In this document: piece after piece, positions 3,576 to 53,943 of the stretch
How the letters are laid out: each line of letters starts with the position of its first letter
Numbering within the stretch: the stretch's first letter is position 1
NCBI GenBank assembly: GCA_043228905.1
Contig: JBHGNT010000001.1
Span: 20,770,001-20,834,000, forward strand
From: Azolla caroliniana
Taxonomy: Eukaryota; Plantae; Polypodiophyta
Direction: 5' to 3'
Length of the DNA stretch: 64,000 bases
Notes under the pieces: generated by a model
Told to the model about the DNA's origin: nothing
Database searches by the model: none
The model's input: only the letters and a program-made list of their open reading frames with translations
Translations under genes and position numbers: made by a program

Positions 3576-4685
3576 TGTCGTGAAGATCCGTCACTACGCG
3601 CGGATCGTGAGGCGGAACCGCCGGGGTTCTGGACCGGAAGGGTTCAAAGTTGGTACAAGCTTTGGCGCAAGCTTTAGCGAGAAAGTACTTAGATAGATTG
3701 GGAAAGAGAGAAGTTGAGATTACACGATTGAGAGAGATTGATTGAACTTTTAACTTTAGATTTAAGAAACAAGTTACACGATCAATTTGATAACGAATTT
3801 CTTCTTCTTAATTTCATAAAAAAAACCGCGTTTTTCTCCTCCCCCTTCCTTCTTTTATAGATGCTCTCATGCATATGATGCATGTGAGGGTACAAGACAT
3901 GCATAAATTGCATGCTTGCCATTTGGCGCTTATGTATTACATGTGGTGCATGATAACCATGTCACTCATTTTAGCTCTCATGTATGAGAATTTACACATA
4001 AAAGTACAAGTACAATGATAGAAATATAAATTCAACTAAATGGCATTGCTTAATGGTAAGCCAATTGAATCCTAACTCGGAGGTGCAAGGTTCGAATCCT
4101 TACTTGCCCTCCTTGTATATGTATATATATTTATATATTTATTTATCTAGTCATCGGACGCCGGTTCGCCGGATGCCGTCGGTTACCGGTGCCTCGCTGG
4201 ATGCCGTCACCTCGTCGCCGTCGGATGCTAGTGTCTCACTGGCGCCGGATGCCGTCACCTCACCGGCGTTGGATGCTGTCGGTTACCGTTCACCGGTCCG
4301 GTTTTGGTTGGCCAAAACCATTTACGAGTAGCTAGCCCACCTCCACTCTTAGTTCAAGTTACCTTGAACTCTCTATGCTCCACACATAGACACAAAGATA
4401 ATATCTTTTGCTCTACCTTATATATGATGAGAGCCGTATTTGTCGTGCCTATGTGGGATATCTCACAATTTTCTCTTTTCTTTTCACAAACTTTATACCC
4501 TCATATCTTGACATTTAGTTGTCCGTTTCTCGTGTAATAAAGTGCATTCGAAACCTCCATCATTTTGTACTTAGATATTAAATTTATTTAAAATGTTATC
4601 TTCACAATTATTGTATTATGTGATTCATACTCGATTTTGTACGTTTTATGGGATTTTTACACTATTGTCGAAAATCTTCACAACA
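3576..4685 (-). repeat. 3' LTR of the gypsy element 3576-9773
   Basis: Direct repeat of 8638-9773, TG...CA termini, PPT adjacent. Confidence 0.95.
4042..4108 (+). ncRNA. tRNA-derived Pol III promoter-like sequence inside LTR (not a functional tRNA)
   Basis: A-box-like TTGCTTAATGG (4046-4056), perfect B box GGTTCGAATCC (4089-4099) in AAGG/CCTT T-stem, GGCA/TGCC ends; tRNA-like spacing. Confidence 0.7.
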
Positions 4686-4757
4686 TCCACCCCCATCAAA
4701 CCGCACGTCCTCCGGTACGTGCCAAGAAGAGAGAAAGTGAGATTTCGGCTACGGTGA

Positions 4758-6419
4758 TCAATTAGATTCCTCCATGTCTTCATTTACATCTGCCCTATTA
4801 TGTTCATCGTCGAGGTAATCGAGGTCAGGATCCTTGTCTTGTGTTTTCTTGAAAATCTTTACTCTTTTTCCCGCAATGGGTACGGCCAACCTTGATTCGT
4901 CTAGTTCTGCAAGGTGGTATGTGGCATTATCATTGGCACTTGTCACCACATACGGCCCGAACCATCTTCTTTTGAACTTCCTTGTTGTACTGTGTTGATT
5001 GTCAAGGGTGCTGTCATAAACCAAAACCCAATCCCCTTCTTCAATCTTCTTGGGACGAAGTCGATGCGTGTTGTCGAACCGAACTTTGTTCTTTACTCGG
5101 GCTGCCTCCATCATCTTTCGTGCTTTTTCTAAATCTTCAGGTCTTCTTTCAAGTTGCCTTATCCGCGCCGCTAATAACTCTTCGTGGCTCATCACGTTCT
5201 CCCACGGTATCGCTACCCATGAGGCGATCGTCCTTTCGATGGGCATAATCGGCTTTTGTCCATACATAAGCTCCGTCGGCATATACCCTGTCACCGAGCT
5301 ATGTGTCGTTCTATCAGCCCACAAGGCATAGGGTAATAGTCGTGGACAATTCCCGACTTGACCGTTGCATGCCCGTACGATGGCTTTAACGATAGGTCCA
5401 TGCCCTCGCTCGATCTTCCCATTCGCTTCTGGATTGTGGGCAGTCGTGAGGGAGAGCTTCACACCTAGTCTTTCGAAGAGCTCCGTCGCTTCATGCGCGT
5501 CCAACTCCCCTCGGTTGGCCACTATCTTCCCTACACATCCATATCGGCAAACAACCTCTTCAAGCAGAAATTTGCAAACGGCTAAAGTCGTCTTATTTGT
5601 CAAGGCTCGTCCTTCCACTTGATTTGTCAAGTCTTCCCTTGCCAGCATTAAGTACTTCATTTGTCCTACTCCCATTGGCATCGAGACCAGATCCACCATC
5701 CATTTGAAGTGTATGGTGAGTGGGTATGTCGGCTGTAACTCATCATGATGACGTATATTGGAATATATTTGGTTAGTTTCGCATGTGGACACGAAATGGA
5801 GTACATCTTTGTACATGCTTGGCCACCAATACTTCTCCTTCAACTTTTCGAACGTTGCCCATGTTCCTCTATGACCTGCCCAAGCACTCTCGTGGAATTC
5901 GGTCATCAACGTCTCTTGCTCTTCTTTCTTTACCACCACTCGACGTGGTATTCCTGTCCTTCTTTTTGGATGTCGCCAAAGGAATCCTCCCTTCAACAAG
6001 TATCGGTAAGCTTTCTTTCGGATTCGTAGGGCCTCCTCCTTTGTCAACGAAGCATTTGTCGTCAATGTTCTTAGGAATCTACTAATGAGTAACCACTCTC
6101 CTTCGTACTCGTTCTCGTTGAAGGCGTGGAGGGTTTGCGTGTCCTGGTCTTCTGCCGACAATCGAGCCATCTTGAAGAAGTCAAGGGCGACATCTTCATC
6201 TTCTGAAACCATGTTACTTCCATTTGAAAATCTTGCCCTCGATAGCATGTCAGCCATGGTGTTCTTCTTCCCTGCAATGTGACGGATCTCTGGGTTTAAA
6301 GACTTGATGTAGGCGATCCACCTTAGCATAGCAAGATCTGGGGTCGCACATCCCGAGACCATTCCGAGAATTGGGAGACAATCTGTTTCTATTATCACTT
6401 CTGACCCGATTCCTTTCAT
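4758..6419 (-). CDS. RNase H C-terminal remnant plus intact Ty3/gypsy integrase (553 aa ORF created by the deletion)
   Basis: FHESAWAGHRG..C zinc-finger region, WMVDLV, HNPEANGKIERGHG catalytic core, RRWFGPYVV GPY/F motif; uninterrupted ORF. Confidence 0.85.
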   Translation of the reverse strand: MKGIGSEVIIETDCLPILGMVSGCATPDLAMLRWIAYIKSLNPEIRHIAGKKNTMADMLSRARFSNGSNMVSEDEDVALDFFKMARLSAEDQDTQTLHAFNENEYEGEWLLISRFLRTLTTNASLTKEEALRIRKKAYRYLLKGGFLWRHPKRRTGIPRRVVVKKEEQETLMTEFHESAWAGHRGTWATFEKLKEKYWWPSMYKDVLHFVSTCETNQIYSNIRHHDELQPTYPLTIHFKWMVDLVSMPMGVGQMKYLMLAREDLTNQVEGRALTNKTTLAVCKFLLEEVVCRYGCVGKIVANRGELDAHEATELFERLGVKLSLTTAHNPEANGKIERGHGPIVKAIVRACNGQVGNCPRLLPYALWADRTTHSSVTGYMPTELMYGQKPIMPIERTIASWVAIPWENVMSHEELLAARIRQLERRPEDLEKARKMMEAARVKNKVRFDNTHRLRPKKIEEGDWVLVYDSTLDNQHSTTRKFKRRWFGPYVVTSANDNATYHLAELDESRLAVPIAGKRVKIFKKTQDKDPDLDYLDDEHNRADVNEDMEESN

Positions 6420-8576
6420 GATTGGCTCGCACCGTTAGGAATTGGACCGATCTTTGGTTGTCAAGAATCTTTATTCGTGTGAAGGCTGCTCCATTATCGA
6501 ACACTTTGGTCTCCATCCGAGATGATGTGATATAAGGTTGCCCTAGTATGACAGGATGCGACGCCGATTCTTGTACGAAGAAGTGTTGATCCATCTCCAC
6601 ATCCCTGATTGTGACTTTGATATTGGGACAAGCTCCGTACAAGTCCTCCGTAGACTTTGTTGCCGCGCGAATCTTCCATCCGTGGTTTGTATTGATTGGC
6701 CATCTTCCTTTTTTGTAGAAGTCGGTTGACATGAGGTTGATCTCCGAGCCATGGTCGATCAAGGCTACCACGGTCTCTTTCTTCTCCCCGATCTTCACTG
6801 GCGTCTCCGTTGTCGCTTGTGCCCAATGAGGTCGAGTATAGTGGCTGTCCACCATATTTCATCGACTTCGTCTCTTGCCATCGTTATGGCATTCGTTTTT
6901 GCTTTTTGCGGCTTCTCTTCTTCCTCGTCCGATTGTTGTCTCTTTCTCTTTACAAGGTCCATGATCGTGTCATGGAACTCCTTCTTCGTAATGCCAAGCA
7001 ATTCCCTCAAGGACAAAGTTACGTGGCTATCAAGAACTCGTTCTTCGAGAATCTTCTTTAGGTCCATCGTCTGCTCTATGTCCGACCTTAGCTTATAGGT
7101 AGGTATAGTCCTTGTCCTCCGAGCGGGGTCTTCGACACCAACCTTCATGGGCCGAACCATTTCTTCAACTCGTATGCTCGGCTCCCCTTTTCGGCTTGAT
7201 TCTCGTTCCTCCATTTGTAAAGGCCGACTCGTCTCCGCATCGTCCTTCTTTTTCGCATTCCTTGTTTCATGTCTTTTTAATGGGCCTTGCTCTTCTATTC
7301 TCTTTCTCTTTTCTTCGACGAACACCTCGTGGTTGTCGCACATCACCTCTGCGAGTATGGTGTTGTTGTCCAACGGATCCGACCACCCGGTTATGCTTTG
7401 CACACTTCGGTCCGCAAGCTCTACCTCGTTCGATGTGACTTTTCCGTTCTTCTCATATTCAAGAACGGAAGTCCAAAACTTTGCTCCCGCTCTAGCAGCT
7501 TCAGTCTTGTCTTTCCCGACTCTTATTCCGGCCGACGCAACATAGTGCATCGCATCCACATGAGTTGCATCGACATCCTCCATAGATTTCTTCATTCCTC
7601 CTCTTCCGAAATTCACCCGTAGGGGTCTTCTAGTCTTGCTTGAGCAGATCATGTTGTCCTCTATGTATACGATATTTTGTCGAATCGCCTCTCGAAGGCT
7701 CGCACAATCCCTTCTCATGTGGTCCATGCTATCGCACCACACGCATCTAAAAGGTTCTTTTCCTTTAGGGCCCCGACGATTCATGTTGGCTAGCGTGACC
7801 TTCTCAAACTTCTTCGCTAGCTCTTCAATGATGTCTTCATCAATCTTCTTTTCTTCCACGTTACTTTGTCTTGGTGGCTCAGCTACTTTCGGTGGTCTTG
7901 CTTTCTCCGTGGTAGTCGGTCCCGTCAAGTCGGTGTCATCAACCCATTGGCGACGCTTGTCGAGCCTATTGCATGCCCGCTTCATCGCGATCCAGTCCGC
8001 TACGAGCCCATTTGCTTGGGTATCATCTTCGAGAAGAGTCCCCAACTCCCATCTATCCTTTATGTCCACCGCCTTCAAGGAGTACAAAGTCTTGTCCTCA
8101 TCAAGCAACACTTGGTCCGTATTGGGGAGACGACTAAACATCTGGTCGAATTCGTCGTACACCCTCAAGACGCTCGTCTTCTTATTCTTCTTCTCTATCC
8201 ACTTCATCAGGGCATGTCAAGTCATCCTCTTTGAGTCTTCTGTCACGAACTCTGCTTGTATCATTTTCTCGAACTCGGACCGTGTTGTCTTACCTTCTTG
8301 AAGCTCGATGACTTGTCTTTGGATGTTGTTGGCGACAACTCTCTTGAGGCTTACGATTTGACGTGCCTCGAACACGTCCCTTTGATTCATCTCCCTTCTA
8401 TATGCATCAAGGAACTTCATAACATTCCTTCCATCGAATTGGCCCTCGAGCTCTACGACACGATCGACAGCCTTCTCCACGCTCGCGTCGTTGTCCTGAG
8501 ATCTCATCATTTGCTCGACGATTAGCATCATCCTTTCGAGCTCTCCCGCTTGGTTGCTTGAGGACGCCTTCTCCAA
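6410..8576 (-). pseudogene. gag-protease ORF of the gypsy element (one stop near 8217, one frameshift near 6855)
   Basis: FDGRNVMKFL gag N-terminus, CVWCDSMDHMRRDC knuckle, ALIDHGSEINLM aspartic protease, ILGQPY. Confidence 0.85.
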
Positions 8577-8611
8577 GTATTAATCTTGACTTGATCCTTC
8601 CTACCGCCTCT

Positions 8612-8629
8612 TTCACGTCAGGTTCACCA
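8612..8629 (-). promoter_or_regulatory. Primer-binding site complementary to tRNA-Trp 3' end
   Basis: Minus strand TGGTGAACCTGACGTGAA, 8 nt inside the 5' LTR; matches the complement of the plant tRNA-Trp 3' end (TTCACGTCGGGTTCACCA, from memory) with one mismatch. Confidence 0.8.
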
Positions 8630-8637
8630 CTTAATTA

Positions 8638-9773
8638 TGTCGTGAAGATCCGTCACTACGCGCGGATCGTGAGGCGGAATCACCGGGGTTCTGGACCGGA
8701 AGGATTCAAAGTTGGTACAAGCTTTGGCGCAAGCTTTAGCGAGAAAGTACTTAAGATAGATTGGGAAAGAGAGAAGTTGAGATTACATGATTGAGAGAGA
8801 TTGATTGAACTTTTAACTTTAGATTTAAGAAACAAGTTACACGATCAATTTGATAACGAATTTCTTCTTCTTAATTTCATAAAAAAAACCGCGTTTTTCT
8901 CCTCCCCCTTCCTTCTTTTATAGATGCTCTCATGCATATGATGCATGTGAGGGTACAAGACATGCATAAAATGCATGCTTGCCATTTGGCGCTTATGTAT
9001 TACATGTGGTGCATGATAACCATGTCACTCATTTTAGCTCTCATGTATGAGAATTTACACGTAAAAGTACAATGATAGAAATATAAATTCAACTAAATGG
9101 CATTGCTTAATGGTAGGCCAATTGACTCCTAACTCGGAGGTGCAAGGTTCGAATCCTTACTTGCCCTCCTTACTTGCCCTCCTAACTCGGACGCCGGTTC
9201 GCAGGATGCTGGATGCCGCCGGTCGTCGTCGGATGCCAGTGTCTCACTGGCGCCGTATGCCGTCGGATGCCGTCAACTCAACGGCGTCGGATGCCGTCAG
9301 TTACCGTTGCCGTCGCCGGATTGCCGTCGGATGCCGGTGTCTCACTGGCGCCTGATGCCGCCGGATCACCGGTTCCATCGCCGGTCCGGTTTTGGTTGGC
9401 CAAAACCATTTACGAGTAGCTAGCCCACCTCCACTCTTAGTTCAAGTTACCTTGAACTCTCTATGCTCCGCACATAGACACAAAGATAATATCTTTTGGT
9501 CTACCTTATATATGATGAGAGCCGTATTTGTCGTGCCTATGTGGGATATCTCACAATTTTCTCTTTTCCTTTCACAAACTTTATACCCTCATATCTTGAC
9601 ATTTAATTGTCCGTTTCTCGTGTAATAAAGTGCATTCGAAACCTCCATCATTTTGTACTTAGATATTAAATTTATTTAAAATGTTATCTTCACAATTATT
9701 GTATTATGTGATTCATACTCGATTTTGTATGTTTTATGGGATTTTTACACTATTGCCGAAAATCTTCACGACA
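8638..9773 (-). repeat. 5' LTR of the gypsy element 3576-9773
   Basis: Direct repeat of 3576-4685, PBS adjacent. Confidence 0.95.
9099..9165 (+). ncRNA. tRNA-derived Pol III promoter-like sequence inside LTR (second copy)
   Basis: TTGCTTAATGG A box, GGTTCGAATCC B box (9146-9156), anticodon-loop-like CTCCTAA (Arg-CCT-like). Confidence 0.7.
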
Positions 9774-31285: not shown

Positions 31286-31965
31286 AAGTGGACGCGTGCA
31301 AAGGAACATGGGAGACGATGATCAAGAAGGAACTCGATATATGTACCACTTTTTTTTTCTCTAGTTTCGTCTTTCTTTTCTTGGAGGGGGGGGGGGGGGG
31401 CATTCTCTTCTGCTCCCTCCCATTCCTTGCGGAAAAAACTCTAAGCCTAATTATCTTAGAGAAGAAAGTCCTAATTTTCCTATGAAATCCATATCTCCGT
31501 TTCTTCTATTCTATTAATCTCCGTAAGTTTAAACTTTTGTAATCCCAATCTTGGGATAGATTGTAATCTTTCTTTCCCTTTGTTAATGAAATTTGTCAAT
31601 CTTTCTCATTTCCATTAATTCTTTAATATAAACATACGAATTTGATATCTTCCGGTCGGAGGTCCTGGGGTCCTGCTTCAAGTTCACGTATCGTTGTCGT
31701 ATTTTCGCGACTCCGGAAAGCTTTGAAGAAGTTAAACACGATACCCATAGCCGAAGTGGTTAAGTGTCATGCAAGAGGAGATGGATTCCTTGCGTGAGAA
31801 CCACACATACGAATTGACCGAGTTGCCAAAAGGGAAGAAGGCACTACGAAATAAGTGGGTATACAAACTTAAGTCAAGAGATGGCGGAAATCCACCTAGA
31901 TGTCACGAACAGGTGGAATGAGGCTAAGTACTAAGAGAGAGCGAGAGCATAAGCAAGATCACAAG

Positions 31966-34900
31966 AGAGCGACGGAGAAGCCAAACAAAGTCTCCTACCT
32001 CCAATTGGGGAGCATCTAAGTGATGACGGTCAGCTTGCTCCTTGTAGTGTCCGCCAGCGAGGGTGAGCTCGAAGGAAAGATAGTGATGTACATCCTCCAA
32101 GAGACGCGCCCGGTCTTCCACAAAAGGATTGACAGAGTCAAACGGAAGCGAAATGGTGAAGCGGGGGTGGAAACCATAGTTGGCGAAAAATGGAGTAACT
32201 CTCGTAGATACATGTAGAGAGTTGTTGTAGGCGAACTCGGCAAGTGGGAGAAGGTCAACCCAGTTGTCTTGTTGGTAACTAAGAGAGCACCGCAAGTATT
32301 GTTCCAAGATTTGGTTAACCCGCTCCGTTTGTCCATCGGTTTGCGGATGATAAGCGGAAGATAGATTCACAATACAACCGAAGGTTTGCAGAAGGCGCCG
32401 ACAGAAATTGGAAACAAATTGTGGTCCTCAATCAGAAGTGATATCGTTTAGGAGTCCGTGTAGTCGAACCACATTTTTGAAAAACAAATCGGTTGTCTCC
32501 TCTCTGGTAATGGTTTTTGCACATGGAGCAAAATGAGTCATCTTGGTGAAGCGATCAACCATGACGAATACCGAGTCATAACCACCAACAAAGGGAAGGT
32601 CAGTGATGAAATCCATGGAAAGAGAGGCCCAAGGCCGTTTGGGGATTGGGAGAGGGTGAAGGAGACCATATGGTCGATGATGAGATGCTTTAGAGTGAGC
32701 ACAAACGTCACGTGACTTTATGAACTCTTTGACCAATTTCCATGGTTGTGGCCACCAGTATCCCCGAGATATCAACTCCAAGGTTTTCGCAACGCCAAAA
32801 TGACCAACAAGTGGATCATCGTGACACTCGTGGAACACCCTTGTCCGACTAGGACCTTCTAGGAGATACAAAAGATTATCTCGAAACAAAAGATTATCCT
32901 GAATTGTAAAATGAGCTAAATTAGGTCTTTTGGGTTCATGGGAGGGGTTTGTGATACTTGCCTTGACCTTTGTGGCGAACTTGTCAGTCGTAGTGGCTTC
33001 TACTATTTGCTTGAGCAAAGAGTCATCCCAGAGCAAGCAAGTCACGAAGTTGTAGAATTGGTTAGGCTTTAACAAACTCGGGGACTGCTGAACATAGGCT
33101 TCATCCTCCGGAGTGAGCTCGAACTCAGACCGACGGGATAAGACATCGGTCTTCGTGTGTTGAGCGCCGGGTCGAAAGATTATCTCAAAATCATAGTCCG
33201 CCAAAAAGTTCGACCATCGCGCCTATCTACGATTTAAGGTTCGTGTGGTAGAAAAGTATATTAGATTTTTGTGATCGGTAATCACTTGGATACAATGTTG
33301 TGCCCCAGCTAAATAAGGTCTCCATTCTTCAAAAGCAACAATAATAGCGAGAAGCTCCTTGTCGTATATGGGGTAGTTGATTTCTGGGGCCGTGAATTTG
33401 CGGGAGTAGTAAGCCATCGGGTGAAGCACACTGACCTCATTTGGTTGGGAGAGGATCGCCCCAATGGCGAAATCTGAAGCATCCGTTTCAACTTGGAAAG
33501 GCTTAGTTGGGTCAGGATGTAAAAGGACTTGTTCCATAGTAAAGTCTTGTTTCAGCAAGTCGTGCGCCTTTTGGGCAGTTGTTGTCCATTTGAAAGTAGC
33601 ATCCTTGCGTGTAAGAGCAATGAGAGGTTGTGCGATCACTGAGAATCCTTTGATGAAGCGGCGATAAAAATTGGCAAAACCAAGGAATGATTGCACATCT
33701 CGTACCCGAGTTGGGACAACCCACTCTTGGATAATCTTAACTTTCCGTGTGTCCATGGTGATTCCCTGTGTCGAAATGGCATACCCAAGAAACTCTACAG
33801 AAGTACAATCAAATTCACATTTTTCACTTTTAGCATAGAGTCCGTGCTCGCGAAGTTTGGCGAGGACTAACCTGACATGTCGAGTATGCTCCTTGATGTT
33901 CGAAGAGAAGACCAAGATATCATCTAGATAGATCACAACAAAGTGATCTAGATATTCTCGGAATATGTCATTCATCATATGCTGAAATACTGCATGAGCA
34001 TTAGTGAGGCTGAAAGGCATTACCTTATACTTGAAATGTCCGTAGCGCGTTCTAAATGTCGTTTTTCCATTCATCTCTAGGTTTGATCCGTACCAAATTG
34101 TATGCTCCCCGTAGGTCAATCTTGGAGAAGATCTTCCTAGTCCGGAGTCGATCCAATAGCTCTGGGATGAGAAACAGTGGGTAGCGGTTGCAAACAATAA
34201 TCTTGTTTAGACCTCGATAGTCGACACAAAGGCATAAGGATCCATCTTTCTTTTACACGGAGTGATTTTGAGGGTTCAATAAAACCCTTTTCAAGGTTCT
34301 CGTCGAGATACATTCGGAGTGCTTGGAGTTCTGGTTCCGACAACCCATAAATTGGGCCAAAGGAAGAACTGGCACCTTCTTGCATATCAATCGAACAGTC
34401 GTAGTGTCGATGCTCAAGCAAGTGATCAACATTCTTTTTCTCAAATACGTCCTTGACGTCTTCATACTTGGACGGTAGTGAGTCAGTAGTTGTCCTCATT
34501 GGATTGCTCGACGAGGCACTATGCAATATTTTCCTTGTTGTGACTGGGATGTGAACATCCGCCTTGGAGCTGATTCCTGCATTAATGGGAGGGTGAGCAC
34601 CTGCAACAACATGAGATATTGTTTGCACCTCCGAGCTAGTTTGGGAGAAAGTAATCGAGTGATTGCGTCAATCAACAAGTGGATTCTCTGCCTTCAGCCA
34701 AGACAAACCGACGATGACCGGATGTTGCGGTGAAGTGATAACATAAAATGTTAAGGCCTCCTGGTGGTCCCCGAGCTGTAAGATAAGTGGGACAATGGCT
34801 TCGGTGACTGCTCCCGAAGAAAGCATGCGTCCATCGATAGCTTCCACTGGGATTGGCTTGGACAATCGGACAACTGGGAATTTGTGTTTACGAACGAACC

Positions 34901-35985
34901 TTTCCTCCATAAAACACGTTGTTGCCCTAGAATCTAATTGAAATCAACTTGAAATGGATGCTTACCAGAAAGGAGAATCCTTCTGTCAATGTAGCCGAAC
35001 TATGGGAGTGACACGAATGCGGATTGTCCAACCACATGGCTCCTACTGTAGTTCGACACCATGGTTTTCTCCTTTGTTGGGGCCATCTTGTCGTATTGTT
35101 TGTAGATATTTCTCGTTGATTATTCTTGATTGGGCAAAAACGAATGAGATGGGCGCGAGCTTGATCAATTTACATCAGCACGGGGTTATCGTACGATGAC
35201 GATGGAGAAGATCTCGAAGAGGGTTTCCACCTTGAAGTTGCTTGTTCCTCTTGACGAAGCTCAAATAATTGATTGTCACAACTAACTGCTTGCGTGATGG
35301 CTTGCAACAATGACGTAGGCTCCAGAAAGTTGAGTAATAAATTTTTAATCTCGCTTCGAAGGCCCCGACGAAAATGGTCGCAGAGAGCGTGGCCATCTCA
35401 CTGAACATCACATGCTAATTGTCTAAATTCAGAGGCATAAATGGATACGGGACGCATATCTTGATGTAATGAATAGAGTTTCTTGATAGCAGTATGGCGT
35501 CGGTCCGTATCCCCAAATGTTGCCACAAACTCTGCCAAAAAGGCAGGAAAGTTTTGTAGAAGTGGTGATGAAGTTTCGACCAACGATGCAAAACAGACTT
35601 GTGCAGCTCCGGACAGAAGGGTCCTGATGAGACCAACTTGATGAAAATCATCCGCATACCGTTGAGGCTGTAGGTGGATAATAAGCTTCATCTGATTTAT
35701 GAACCCTTAGAAGTGCTTCCTCATGCCATCGAACTTGTTAGGTAAACTAATATTGGGCGCCAAACTTGTACTGGGATGGGAAGGAGTCAGAGAAAGCATA
35801 GACGAGGAACCAAGCTCTATAGGTAGAACATTTGTTGATGTAGGAGGAGAGTTGTTTTTTTCTTCGAGTTCCATCGATGTTCCAACTTGAAGCTTCCATA
35901 ACGATTCCCGAAGGTTGTCATTGTCAAGGTGAAGTTGATGCATGGCTTCCATGAGGTGATTTATTCTCTCGGTAAGATCCGACAT
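31966..35985 (-). pseudogene. gag-pol of the Tf1/Tcn1-like element
   Basis: Series of minus-strand ORF fragments in gag-PR-RT-RH-IN order with stops and frameshifts. Confidence 0.9.
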
Positions 35986-36412
35986 GTTGAGCCTTAGAAA
36001 ATGGGAAGGTGAAGAAACTGTCACGAACGGATGGAATGAGGCTAAGTACTAAGAGAAAGCGAGAGCATAAGCAAGATCACAAGATTGTCAAGGACAAGTA
36101 GACGAGGCTCAATATTAAGAGATAGCGGGAGAGAGAGCATAGACAAGAGAACAAGCAAGAGAGAGGATAGACAAATAAACAAGAATTGTACATGCTTTCG
36201 TAACTGGTGTTGTTCACCTTGATTGTAATCAAGGTGCACCCCAATATATATACCAGAATGTGGAGGTATGCATGAAAGCTAGAAGACTTCTAGAGAGTGC
36301 ATGGAAACTTCTAGAGAGTGCATGAAGATGCATTCTCTAGAAGGTTCTTGAAAGTTCTAGTGATCAATCTATAATGAAATAAGTTGAGTTTTACACAATA
36401 CAATAATGCATA

Positions 36413-36484
36413 GATGGATGTAGCTCAATTGGTAAGGTTGCCCAATAAGACTAGAAGGTCATGGGTTCAGCCCCCACCAATCCA
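36413..36484 (+). ncRNA. tRNA-derived Pol III promoter-like sequence inside LTR
   Basis: A box TAGCTCAATTGG (36421-36432), AGGTC variable loop, T-arm TGGG-TTCAGCC-CCCA, GGAT/ATCC ends, ~72 nt. Confidence 0.7.
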
Positions 36485-37763
36485 TGTGGCATCTTGTCTA
36501 TAACACCATATACAAAGCACAAATTGTCGTGAAAGGTTTCCAGGAGAACAAGGGTGTGCATTTCGACAAAATATTTGCCCTGGTGGTTAAGATGATGTTA
36601 ATCCGAACAATGTTGAGCATTGCAGCCAGCCTAGATCTCAAAGTCAAGACGACGTTTCTGCACGGAGATCTATATGCACCAGTCGAAAGGATTCATAAAG
36701 AAAGGTAAAGAAAATCTGGTATGCCGATTGAGAAAGAGCTTGTATGGGCTAAAGCAGACACCTCAACAATGGTACCAAAAATTCGAACCCTTCATGACCG
36801 ACAATGGGTACCACAAAATGAAGGCCGATCACTGCATGCTTGTGAAGAAATTCGATGAGGGAGGTTTCCGCATCCTCCTATTTTCCGTGAACAACATGTT
36901 GATTGTAGGACGGGACCATACGAAGATCCGAGTGCTGAAGAAGGCCTTGAGCAGATTGTTATCGATGAAGAATATGGGTCCGGTAAAGCAAATCCTGGGG
37001 ATGTGCATTGTTCAGGATCAAACAAAGAAATTATTGTGGTTGTCATAGGAGAAATACGTGACAAAGGTGCTCCAGAGATTTGACATGAAAAGCGCGAAAC
37101 CGGTCGACTCGACAATGTCGACGAACTGCGATGGTATGTACCAAGACGAACATAGGATACACAGTCGGAGTGGTCAGCCGATATATGAGAAATCCCGATA
37201 GAGAGCATTGGGATGCTGTGAAGTGGATACTTCGGTACCCGAGAGGCACTTCGATTCGGCTCAGATAACCCCACATTGGAAGGTTACACGAATTCAGACA
37301 TGTCGGCTAATGCAGATACCAGCCGATCCACGTCTGGATACATGATGACTTACGCAAGGCGGAGCTGTTTCGTGGAAGTCAAAGTTGTAGAAGGACGTGG
37401 CGTTGTCAACCACGAAAGCCGAGTATATGGCCGCAGGGAAAGCCGTCAAGGAAATAACATGGATGAAGGAATTTATAGGTGAGTTGGGAATTCGGCAGGA
37501 AGAATTTCGACTCTACTGCGATAATCAGAGTATCATCCATCTTGCCAAGAATGTCGCCTACCACTCAAGGTCCAAGCACATCCAAAGGAGATACCATTGG
37601 CTCCGAGAGGAAGTAGAAGAGAAGGACTTTGCTCTGATGAAGATTCACACGGTTGAGAATGGATCGTATATGCTGTCGAAGGTGTTGTCAGCCGAAAAGC
37701 TAAACGCATGCCGAAAGAGAGTCGGTTTGGTGAACTGTCCCACACTGGAGTGAAGGTGGAGTT

Positions 37764-52037: not shown

Positions 52038-52241
52038 TAAAATAGTAGGATGTAGAACATGAATCAATGATATTGATACTAATTCACGTAGTGAATAATA
52101 TCTCTTAGCCTTTATTATTCATGAGCATGTATGGTGTTCTAGTTCCCCCTATTCATTATTGAGATTGAAAACGTTCATCTTGAAGAAAAGAACGAAACAG
52201 TAGAGAGAGAGAGAGAGAGAGAGAAATACAGATAGACTTAC

Positions 52242-53414
52242 CATGGAGCAGGTTGAATAAGCTTCCGTTAGACATGAAGTCGTAGACAAGAAGCTTCTCT
52301 TCTTTGGCATAATAGAAAGCTCGAAGAGAAACCAGATTTTGGTGTCCTCGGATTTTGCCAATCAAATCCATTTGTTGTTCAAAATCTTTCTTACTTGATG
52401 CATTCGCCTCCTTCAATCTCTTGATAGCTACAGATCCCCCATCCTCCATCACTGCCTTATATGCCGTGCCAAGACTACCCTTTCCAAGCATCTCCGCCGA
52501 TGCTCTTAACAAATCTTCTAACTCAAACTTCTTCATTTTCCGACCATCACCATCTCCACCATCATCACCATCGTCAAAGAAAATAAGTTTTTTCTTGCTC
52601 TTCTTTTCACTGGATTCAGCCCGATCATTAGCCGTACTCGGGCCTGGCAAGCAGTTTATGTCTTGTGCGAATTTGTTCGACTTGCAATCTCCAAATGCAT
52701 TGTTCGACTTGCAATCTCCAAACGCATTGCCACCGAGCGTTTTCACTTTCGATCTTTGATAATATATGGAGAATACGAGGACTAATAAAAGGAGAAGTAC
52801 CACATCTCCAACCACAATGGCAGCAATGGCACCTAAGCTAAGCTTGCTAGAGCTCTTCTTAACCACTCCAACTTGTGGTGATTGTAAAGTAAATGGGTCA
52901 TTGTGGGTAGATGGTATACTAACAAACGGTGAGGCAGGGCTACTTAACACGTCACTTGCATTGCATGAAGGTAAGGGCGTCCCACATAGGTTGAGATTGC
53001 CATAGAAAGAAGAACTTGGAAACCTACCTAAGGATAGTGGAATCAACCCACTTAAGTTATTATATGAAACATCAAAGAAGGTGAGGTTTGTCATGTTTAG
53101 GGCGGGGATAGCTCCATAAAACAGGTTGTGGCCGAGAGATAAGTCGATGAGGTTGGGTAATGTGAGGTTAGGGATGGTACCTGTGAGGTTGTTATGATGA
53201 AGATGTAGAGACAGCAGCATTGTCAAGTTGAGCAACGATGGAGGGATGGTCCCATTGAAGTTGTTATGCGATAGGTCTAAGGTCCGAAGCTGAGATAACA
53301 AAGAGATGGAGTCGGGGATGGGTCCCGAGAATCGGTTGGACGGGAGCGCAAGGAACCATAGGTGTTTCCAATTAGCAATGCTACTGTTGCTAATGCTGCT
53401 GCTGCTTCTTAGCG

Positions 53415-53450
<36 letters not shown>

Positions 53451-53726
53451 GAGGAGGAGAAGGAATGAGCTGGCCCTGGAAGTTGTTGTTAGAGAGAATG
53501 AGGACTCGGAGCTCGGTTAGAAGGAGAAGGGGCTGGAGGGATCCACTTAGGTTTCGGCCTCGTAACGACAGTCGGGCGACGCGGCCATCTAGCGTGCATG
53601 TCACCCCGCTCCAATCGCAACAATCTGAGGTGTTCCATGCTGCCAGAGACTGCGTCTCAGGATCACTGGCGGCTCTGAATGTGAGCAGTGCTTGTGTGTC
53701 ATTTTGGGCATGAATGCTGTTGCTGT

Positions 53727-53757
<31 letters not shown>

Positions 53758-53790
53758 CAGAGGGCAAAAGAAGAGAGAGGGTAGCAGCAT
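52242..53790 (-). CDS. LRR receptor-like kinase, exon 1 (signal peptide, LRRNT, ~6-7 LRRs, TM, kinase N-lobe); LRR-III atypical kinase, ~723 aa spliced
   Basis: Leu-rich signal peptide, CDWSGVTC cap, LxxNxFxGxIP repeats, GNLNLCG, TM helix, FELEDLLRASAEMLGKGSLGTAYKA; GTAAGT donor at 52241 gives a phase-1 intron at LLHG, typical of this subfamily. Confidence 0.95.
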
Positions 53791-53800
53791 TGTGTGTGTG

Positions 53801-53831
<31 letters not shown>

Positions 53832-53943
53832 GGCCTCAGAAGAAGACCATAGCTCGAGATATGGAGAAGAACCCACGAGAGGGAAAGTTAGATAAAGGGC
53901 TATAGAGACCTCACAAATGGAGAATTCGTTCTACTGAGAAGAA

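What the first reader, a model, noticed from the sequence alone, without database searches (positions are those of the whole stretch)
36413..36484. Second, independent tRNA-like cassette in the LTR of an unrelated gypsy element, again antisense
Seen: GGATG-TAGCTCAATTGGTAAGG...AGGTCATGGGTTCAGCCCCCACCAATCCA, 21 bp from the LTR edge, ~160 bp upstream of and divergent from the TATA box. It is not similar to the 4042 cassette beyond the boxes. No TTTT occurs before the LTR end, so a Pol III transcript would read outward, or antisense into the internal region from a 3' LTR. Inference: convergent recruitment of tDNA into LTRs by two lineages in one genome suggests a function (barrier to silencing, antisense control, or promoter for derived non-autonomous elements). 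Only one LTR copy of this part survives, so a later SINE insertion is not excluded.
Basis: partly seen in the sequence, partly recalled or inferred. Interest (0 to 1): 0.75.

Follow-up and report, generated by a model that had tools for sequence, protein, structure and literature searches.

The report
Backward tRNA promoters inside retrotransposon LTRs
Nearly all sampled members of one group of jumping genes in this plant genome, and several families of an unrelated group, carry a backward-facing tRNA-gene-type promoter inside their end repeats, kept while the DNA between its boxes drifted; it likely binds RNA polymerase III factors and may help keep the element's own promoter open, a role I did not find described for protein-coding retrotransposons.

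Summary
Real, and wider than reported. The 70-bp cassette is a fixed part of U3 in a self-priming, chromodomain-bearing (Tcn1-type) Gypsy family: 32 of 32 aligned LTRs carry it. It is not family-specific. In 28 of 30 Tcn1-type 3' LTRs taken in genome order, from about ten diverged families, an antisense GG motif plus B box lies at near-tRNA spacing, while the spacer, RNA fold and terminator are not conserved. Unrelated Phygy-type LTRs carry other antisense cassettes (7 of 30 loci), tRNA-Met-primed LTRs none (0 of 30). This family's version is 85% identical to the head of a high-copy tRNA-Ile-like SINE, so SINE ancestry is likely, but not a late insertion. Best reading: a DNA-level TFIIIC/Pol III site, 120-210 bp upstream of the TATA box, that helps keep the promoter open. 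That function is untested; old copies show no protection from methylation-type decay, and this copy's B box is damaged. Closest known: Helenus TRIMs (sense, non-coding). The scan noted LTR-borne or antisense tRNA-like units before in other genomes.

The parts
36019..36505 (-). 5' LTR (487 bp, TG...CA) of a Tcn1-type chromovirus family ('family A')
   Evidence: 41 genome matches at 90-100% over most of its length among 40 scored of 1945 candidates; ends fixed by alignment
36415..36484 (+). tRNA-derived cassette, antisense to the element, in the outer part of U3
   Evidence: nearest of 13 host isotypes is tRNA-Ile(TAT)
36421..36432 (+). A box
   Evidence: sequence; aligns to host tRNA positions 8-19
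36456..36474 (+). variable-loop motif (36456-36460) and B box (36464-36474); A58 is mutated in this copy
36412..36497 (+). stretch homologous to nt 4-88 of a ~210-bp SINE-like family (75 of 88 columns identical)
36244..36252 (-). TATA box of the element's Pol II promoter
   Evidence: sequence; same place in sister families
36210..36220 (-). predicted self-primer, 30-40 nt downstream of TATA
   Evidence: 11-12 nt perfect complement to the post-LTR site in 5 of 5 other elements, with co-variation among families
36006..36018 (-). primer-binding site for self-priming (no tRNA PBS); one mismatch in this copy
31969..35990 (-). broken gag-pol (RT, RNase H, integrase); chromodomain, PPT and most of the 3' LTR deleted in this copy
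   Evidence: chromodomain present in family member L033
31901..31966 (-). remnant of the 3' LTR (last 66 nt)
31896..31900 (+). left target-site duplication; right copy at 36506-36510 matches 3 of 5; element sits inside a Copia RT region
   Evidence: sequence
4041..4113 (+). different antisense cassette in the 3' LTR of a Phygy-type element, about 195 bp from its TATA
9098..9170 (+). same cassette in the 5' LTR of that Phygy-type element

Best explanation
The cassette is a tRNA/SINE-derived A-box/B-box unit fixed in the U3 of Tcn1-type retrotransposon LTRs, facing away from the element's own promoter; it is likely kept by selection as a DNA site for TFIIIC/Pol III and likely helps keep the LTR promoter open against surrounding heterochromatin. 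Shown: fixed LTR part, lineage-wide presence, box-only conservation, tRNA-like spacing, one orientation, SINE homology. Inferred: TFIIIC binds it (odds about 0.8); TFIIIB and a nucleosome-poor region then form on the side of the TATA box; the bound complex acts as a barrier or opener for copies that the chromodomain integrase places in heterochromatin (odds about 0.5). Cassettes appear to be replaced from time to time by fresh SINE heads; the outward orientation would avoid Pol III running into the Pol II promoter (inference).
For: 28 of 30 Tcn1-type 3' LTRs beat shuffles; A+B score >=14 in 17 antisense against 0 sense, 0 next-130-nt, 0 internal windows (>=12: 19, 3, 0, 0). Across 20 representatives B-box columns G19 T19 T20 C19 and A20 of 20 and the upstream variable-loop motif 14-19 of 20, while mid-spacer similarity is near shuffled (0.22 vs 0.17). 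GG-to-B gap 31-34 nt as in tRNA in most families, 38-39 in others. Carriers lie in two starred integrase clades about 50-57% identical and in unrelated Phygy-type LTRs, one with two different cassettes. Distance to TATA is 123-188 nt in the 9 of 20 representatives where it could be measured and 158-209 for the nearest cassette in 5 Phygy-type LTRs, whereas distance to the LTR edge ranges 8-655 nt. No conserved fold (median z -0.8, control -2.2) or terminator, so the constraint looks DNA-level. Intact young copies (LTRs 99.7-100% identical) keep a perfect B box. tDNA barriers need TFIIIC and Pol III in S. pombe (PMC2040200, abstract); chromodomain integrases are reported to aim at heterochromatin (PMC7466625, passage citing Gao 2008).
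Against: No ChIP, methylome or expression support. In 29 family-A LTRs C-to-T-type changes are not lower in the cassette (CHH 0.035 vs 0.019-0.027; CHG 0.22 on only 2 sites vs 0.13), and within-family conservation equals the rest of the LTR (0.954 vs 0.962); both boxes are intact in only 15 of 30 rows. The feature is dispensable: degenerate in L144/L211, absent in L214, L209, L219, in Selaginella SM-Tcn1 (by eye) and in 23 of 30 Phygy-type loci. The 5' half of the A box is poorly conserved in many families. The scoring motif was chosen after seeing the sequences, and the GG column is fixed by construction. The S. pombe barrier is orientation-independent, so it does not by itself explain the orientation. 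Phygy-type carriers have no chromodomain hit.
Confidence: 0.5

Rival explanations
1. The cassette makes an antisense Pol III RNA from the 3' LTR across the U3 end and PPT that limits the element's own copying or feeds small RNAs.
For: Strict antisense orientation in all carriers seen; in family A a T5 run lies 42 nt past the LTR; LTR-encoded Pol III RNAs exist in foamy viruses (PMC3993851, passages).
Against: T4 position varies 11-114 nt and is missing within 150 nt in 6 of 20; no conserved fold; in the 4042 Phygy-type LTR a T4 run lies inside the LTR, so the RNA would not reach the PPT.
Confidence: 0.2
2. Neutral passenger: SINE heads landed in U3 of a few ancestors and hitch-hiked; sense insertions were purged.
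For: 85% identity to a SINE head; no extra conservation within families; many relatives do without it.
Against: Boxes and spacing persist while the spacer has decayed to near-random similarity across clades 50-57% identical in integrase; repeated presence in a narrow band upstream of TATA; none in 30 tRNA-Met-primed LTR windows.
Confidence: 0.13
3. The motifs came from tRNA/SINE but now work as Pol II enhancer sites on the sense strand, without Pol III.
For: Located in U3 where LTR enhancers lie; A-box 5' half decayed in many families.
Against: Two motifs kept at tRNA spacing and exactly the TFIIIC-type invariant positions.
Confidence: 0.1
4. A role in reverse transcription or integration (structure at the U3 end, extra primer).
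For: In Tcn1-type LTRs the B box lies 8-55 nt from the end and some families have end hairpins.
Against: Priming is already explained by the self-primer and a PPT; Phygy-type cassettes lie 136-655 nt inside; no shared fold.
Confidence: 0.07

Closest known systems
Helenus (TRIMp3, with Cassandra and Ajax); Kojima 2024, PMC10886601 (parts 1-5 of 6 of the text and one supplement passage read)
   Same: tRNA-like sequence in LTRs with conservation centred on A and B boxes, non-decoding, proposed origin by SINE insertion into an LTR.
   Different: Helenus are 311-1263 bp, non-coding, tRNA-primed, and the cassette is in sense (plant Helenus-1_SMo) as the proposed element promoter. Here elements are ~5.2 kb, protein-coding, self-primed, keep a TATA box, and the cassette is antisense. 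The paper analysed only TRIMs under 1000 bp, while noting that 'not a few LTRs' in Repbase resemble part of a tRNA.
Tcn1 clade chromoviruses (Tf1/Sushi group); Neumann 2019 PMC6317226 (passages), Novikova 2010 PMC2864245 (passages and supplement S3)
   Same: Chromodomain integrase, no tRNA PBS, predicted self-priming, 5-bp TSD, seed-free plant host.
   Different: No tRNA-like or Pol III element is mentioned in the passages searched (0 hits for 'tRNA-like' and 'polymerase III' in PMC6317226); SM-Tcn1's LTR shows no such cassette by eye.
tDNA and SINE chromatin barriers: S. pombe cen1 tDNA-Ala (PMC2040200, abstract); mouse B2 SINE boundaries (PMC8136502, search listing only)
   Same: A/B-box DNA that would recruit TFIIIC/Pol III next to a Pol II unit; this is what it is proposed to work like.
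   Different: Those are host loci with tested activity; here the unit travels with the transposon and activity is untested.
Foamy virus LTR Pol III miRNA genes (PMC3993851, passages)
   Same: Pol III A/B-box units inside the LTR of an autonomous retroelement.
   Different: Those have conserved hairpins and terminators and give miRNAs; here neither is conserved.

Membership tests
Helenus/TRIMp3 | tRNA-derived A and B boxes inside the LTR | tested here: met
Helenus/TRIMp3 | short (<~1.3 kb) non-coding element | tested here: not met
   paired-LTR family-A elements ~5.0-6.0 kb with gag-pol remnants; sister family with intact 1199-aa pol
Helenus/TRIMp3 | cassette in sense, able to make the template RNA | tested here: not met
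   antisense in all carriers; Helenus-1_SMo is sense
Helenus/TRIMp3 | tRNA primer-binding site | tested here: not met
   post-LTR site complements the LTR itself
Tcn1 chromovirus | Gypsy RT/RH/INT with C-terminal chromodomain | tested here: met
   deleted in the window copy, present in L033
Tcn1 chromovirus | self-priming instead of tRNA PBS | tested here: met
   11-12 nt complement co-varying across families, 5 of 5 elements; sequence-level only
Tcn1 chromovirus | placement with REXdb Tcn1 reference sequences in an RT tree | not tested
   no reference set in the tree
SINE insertion (individual copy) | own TSD, A-rich tail, absent from other LTR copies | tested here: not met
   32 of 32 rows carry it at the same offset, no tail
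functional tRNA gene | cloverleaf called by ARAGORN/Rfam | tested here: not met
   also 0 genes in L284, L117, L137, L120
Pol III chromatin barrier | TFIIIC/Pol III occupancy | not testable with these tools
   no ChIP data
Pol III chromatin barrier | local protection from methylation | tested here: inconclusive
   no dip in C-to-T-type decay in 29 old copies; indirect, few CG/CHG sites
Phygy (4042 element) | non-chromovirus, NCGN 4-bp target, tRNA primer | tested here: met
   flanks; PBS matches the 3' end of host tRNA-Trp; definition from PMC6317226; no RT tree

The most novel reading that the evidence does not exclude
Autonomous LTR retrotransposons in this plant lineage repeatedly recruit and renew SINE/tRNA Pol III promoters as portable insulators: a TFIIIC-bound module copied into both LTRs at every transposition that shields the promoter inside heterochromatin, reached independently by chromoviruses and non-chromoviruses.
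Probability: 0.4. Interest if true: 0.85.

Novelty: new variant of a known kind. Interest (0 to 1): 0.66.

Why it matters
How retrotransposons that insert into heterochromatin still get transcribed is an open question. A conserved Pol III-type site at a fixed side of the promoter gives a single, mutable handle to test a built-in anti-silencing mechanism. It also extends small-RNA-gene capture from tiny parasites (Helenus, Cassandra) to protein-coding elements, shows sequence traffic between SINEs and LTRs, and implies more than a thousand possible extra TFIIIC sites in this genome (1310 Tcn1-type PPT-LTR junctions against 45 control matches; 1291 first-look candidates for this cassette).

Tried and rejected
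ARAGORN and Rfam: no call. Cassette-only genome search returned LTR copies in 30 of 30 fetched loci, but it scores only the 40 best of 1291 candidates and so missed the 85%-identical SINE; it does not show that no SINE exists. RNA: no RNA holder listed; poly(A) reads on an intact sister element were 25 and 28, diverged, without start piles; on family A the 119, 110 and 126 reads were mostly partial matches from SINE-type sequence with (GA)n loose ends, no start piles. None of this bears on Pol III transcription. Conserved fold and conserved terminator: rejected (the C_L137 row was anchored on the wrong motif because its B box is mutated, and L212 has a 45-nt gap). Cassette as primer: rejected. 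TRIM-sized derivative of family A: the short LTR pair in L419 is an internally deleted copy of about 2.4 kb, not a TRIM. Tree: 68 loci tried, 50 kept; 12 had no integrase match within 1.5 kb of the PPT and 6 were under 130 aa, so three cassette-bearing LTR groups are not on it; root is midpoint and test_one_clade was not run, so independent gain versus loss within Tcn1 is open. Metagenome: 64 of 80 loci examined, 20 had no usable PPT/LTR, 44 scored, 9 positive, all from one series of records that may be the same or a close host. Direction of SINE-LTR exchange not settled. Literature searches found no description of antisense A/B cassettes in autonomous plant LTRs; the library lacks most subscription papers and Repbase notes, and five .DOC supplements of PMC2864245 could not be read. 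10.1101/827881 and PMC13570524 (passages) added nothing; PMC13437025 (passages) gave flanking-motif background only.

Full report
Observation. ARAGORN and Rfam do not call it. Its best match among 56 host tRNA sequences of 13 isotypes is tRNA-Ile(TAT), score 70.5, next isotype 53.5, shuffled top 40; the isotype set is incomplete. This copy has lost the invariant A58 of the B box.

The element. It is a Gypsy element inserted in a Copia RT region, with RT, RNase H and integrase remnants and only 66 nt of its 3' LTR. Family members are 5.0-6.0 kb with 5-bp target duplications in L031 and L032, LTR pairs 93-97% identical and a C-terminal chromodomain. There is no tRNA primer site; instead 11-12 nt after the 5' LTR complement a stretch just downstream of TATA in 5 of 5 other elements, and both sides change together among families. 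This fits the Tcn1 clade of seed-free plants, predicted to self-prime (PMC6317226, passages). So the cassette is not needed for priming.

Fixed, not inserted. The LTR has 41 long matches among 40 scored of 1945 candidates; 39 cover the whole cassette and 2 part of it. All 32 aligned rows carry it at the same offset, with no tail or duplication (two rows are arms of one inverted junction and two look like duplicates).

Lineage-wide. A PPT-plus-LTR-start pattern has 1310 matches against 45 for the control. The first 30 in genome order fall into about ten LTR families. On the antisense strand of LTR nt 1-130 a combined GG-plus-B-box score beats 100 shuffles at p<=0.05 in 28 of 30; scores >=14 occur in 17 antisense windows and in none of the sense, next-130-nt or internal windows. 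The motif was chosen after viewing the sequences. In 20 representatives the B-box core is kept in 19-20, the variable-loop motif in 14-19, the gap is mostly 31-34 nt as in tRNA, and the mid-spacer is near shuffled similarity (0.22 against 0.17); folding is not conserved and the first T4 beyond the LTR lies anywhere from 11 to 114 nt or is absent in 6. The youngest family, with intact pol and LTRs 99.7-100% identical, keeps a perfect B box. In metagenome relatives 9 of 44 scorable loci are positive, all 58-86% identical in integrase and from one series of records; none of 34 from other records is. On the integrase tree (50 of 68 loci) carriers form two starred clades, with cassette-less L214 sister to one of them; the tRNA-Ile-like version is one subclade, 96/94. 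Selaginella SM-Tcn1 lacks the cassette by eye. So it marks Tcn1-type elements of this host lineage, not the whole clade.

Second lineage. The 4042 element has a tRNA-Trp primer site, NCGN 4-bp targets like Phygy and an integrase 24% identical to the Tcn1 one. Its cassette is in 20 of 20 copies. Among 30 Phygy-type junction loci 7 carry an antisense cassette (two overlap, so 6 distinct), 23 do not; among 30 windows upstream of tRNA-Met primer sites none does. L309 has two different cassettes. What the lineages share is orientation and distance to TATA, 123-188 nt and 158-209 nt, not distance to the LTR edge.

SINE link. A separate ~210-bp family (1356 first-look candidates) sits in (GA)n tracts, has an A-rich 3' end and variable 5' truncations, as expected of a SINE. 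Window 36412-36497 matches its nt 4-88 at 75 of 88 columns; only the three tRNA-Ile-like families score high against it (102-123 against 15-33). Homology starts at the SINE's 5' end and stops about 8 nt short of the LTR terminus, which resembles that of sister families with other cassettes. Capture of a SINE head by the LTR is the simpler reading (about 60:40); birth of the SINE from an LTR transcript is not excluded.

Mechanism. Shown: fixed position, box-only conservation over deep divergence, one orientation, recurrence. Inferred: TFIIIC binding, and a benefit to the Pol II promoter as barrier or opener, by analogy with tDNA barriers (PMC2040200, abstract) and given heterochromatin targeting by chromodomains (PMC7466625, passage). 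Against: no lower C-to-T-type decay in the cassette of 29 old copies, no extra within-family conservation, both boxes intact in 15 of 30 rows, many relatives lack it, and the yeast barrier ignores orientation. Old copies decay neutrally, so these results test protection in silenced copies, not selection on the copies that transpose. RNA runs were uninformative.

Comparison and verdict. It works like a tDNA/SINE promoter module and resembles Helenus in make-up, but fails three Helenus features: size and coding, orientation, and primer. Foamy virus LTRs hold Pol III miRNA genes, with hairpins and terminators that are missing here. Nine paper searches found no account of this arrangement; Kojima's remark that not a few Repbase LTRs resemble tRNA parts shows that single cases have been seen. 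Notes of this scan report LTR-borne or antisense tRNA-like units in fungal-type genomes; none matched this sequence. New variant of a known kind, interest 0.66; function untested.

Noticed in passing
L277-L305, L366-L390: High-copy ~210-bp SINE-like family in (GA)n tracts with a tRNA-Ile-like head and a second A/B-box-like unit on the opposite strand in its 3' half; appears in poly(A) reads with GA flanks.
   Followed up: partly
L309, LTR nt ~180-390: One Phygy-type LTR carries two different antisense tRNA-like cassettes in tandem.
   Followed up: partly
L178; window 3580-9773: Elements with gag and integrase but no RT match between their LTRs; L178 has LTRs 99.8% identical, so such non-autonomous forms seem recently mobile.
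   Followed up: partly
L181, L185; 12 of 30 loci L146-L175: Short (2.2-2.7 kb) LTR pairs and many PPT junctions with no integrase match within 1.5 kb: probable non-autonomous Tcn1-type families that still carry the cassette.
   Followed up: partly
PMC2864245 supplement S3 (SM-Tcn1): By eye, the sequence after the 5' LTR complements about 15 nt of the LTR just before the motif shared with these elements, although the paper reports no evidence of self-priming.
   Followed up: no
L035 (G000:C4:19256781-19257707): Two family-A LTRs joined head to head at their cassette ends.
   Followed up: no
L137, L136; L120 family: One family has a 12-bp inverted repeat closing the cassette; the youngest family has its B box in the loop of an 8-bp hairpin at the very end of the LTR.
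   Followed up: partly
G000 C8:17.80-17.82 Mb, C16:4.99-5.11 Mb, C5:17.99 Mb, C2:20.11 Mb: Tandem arrays of tRNA-Trp-type, tRNA-Lys and tRNA-Ile genes.
   Followed up: no
window 52156-53835 (-): Host LRR receptor-like kinase fragment.
   Followed up: no
window 54563 (+): Weak A/B-like pair (score 15.0, within the shuffled range) in AT-rich DNA.
   Followed up: no
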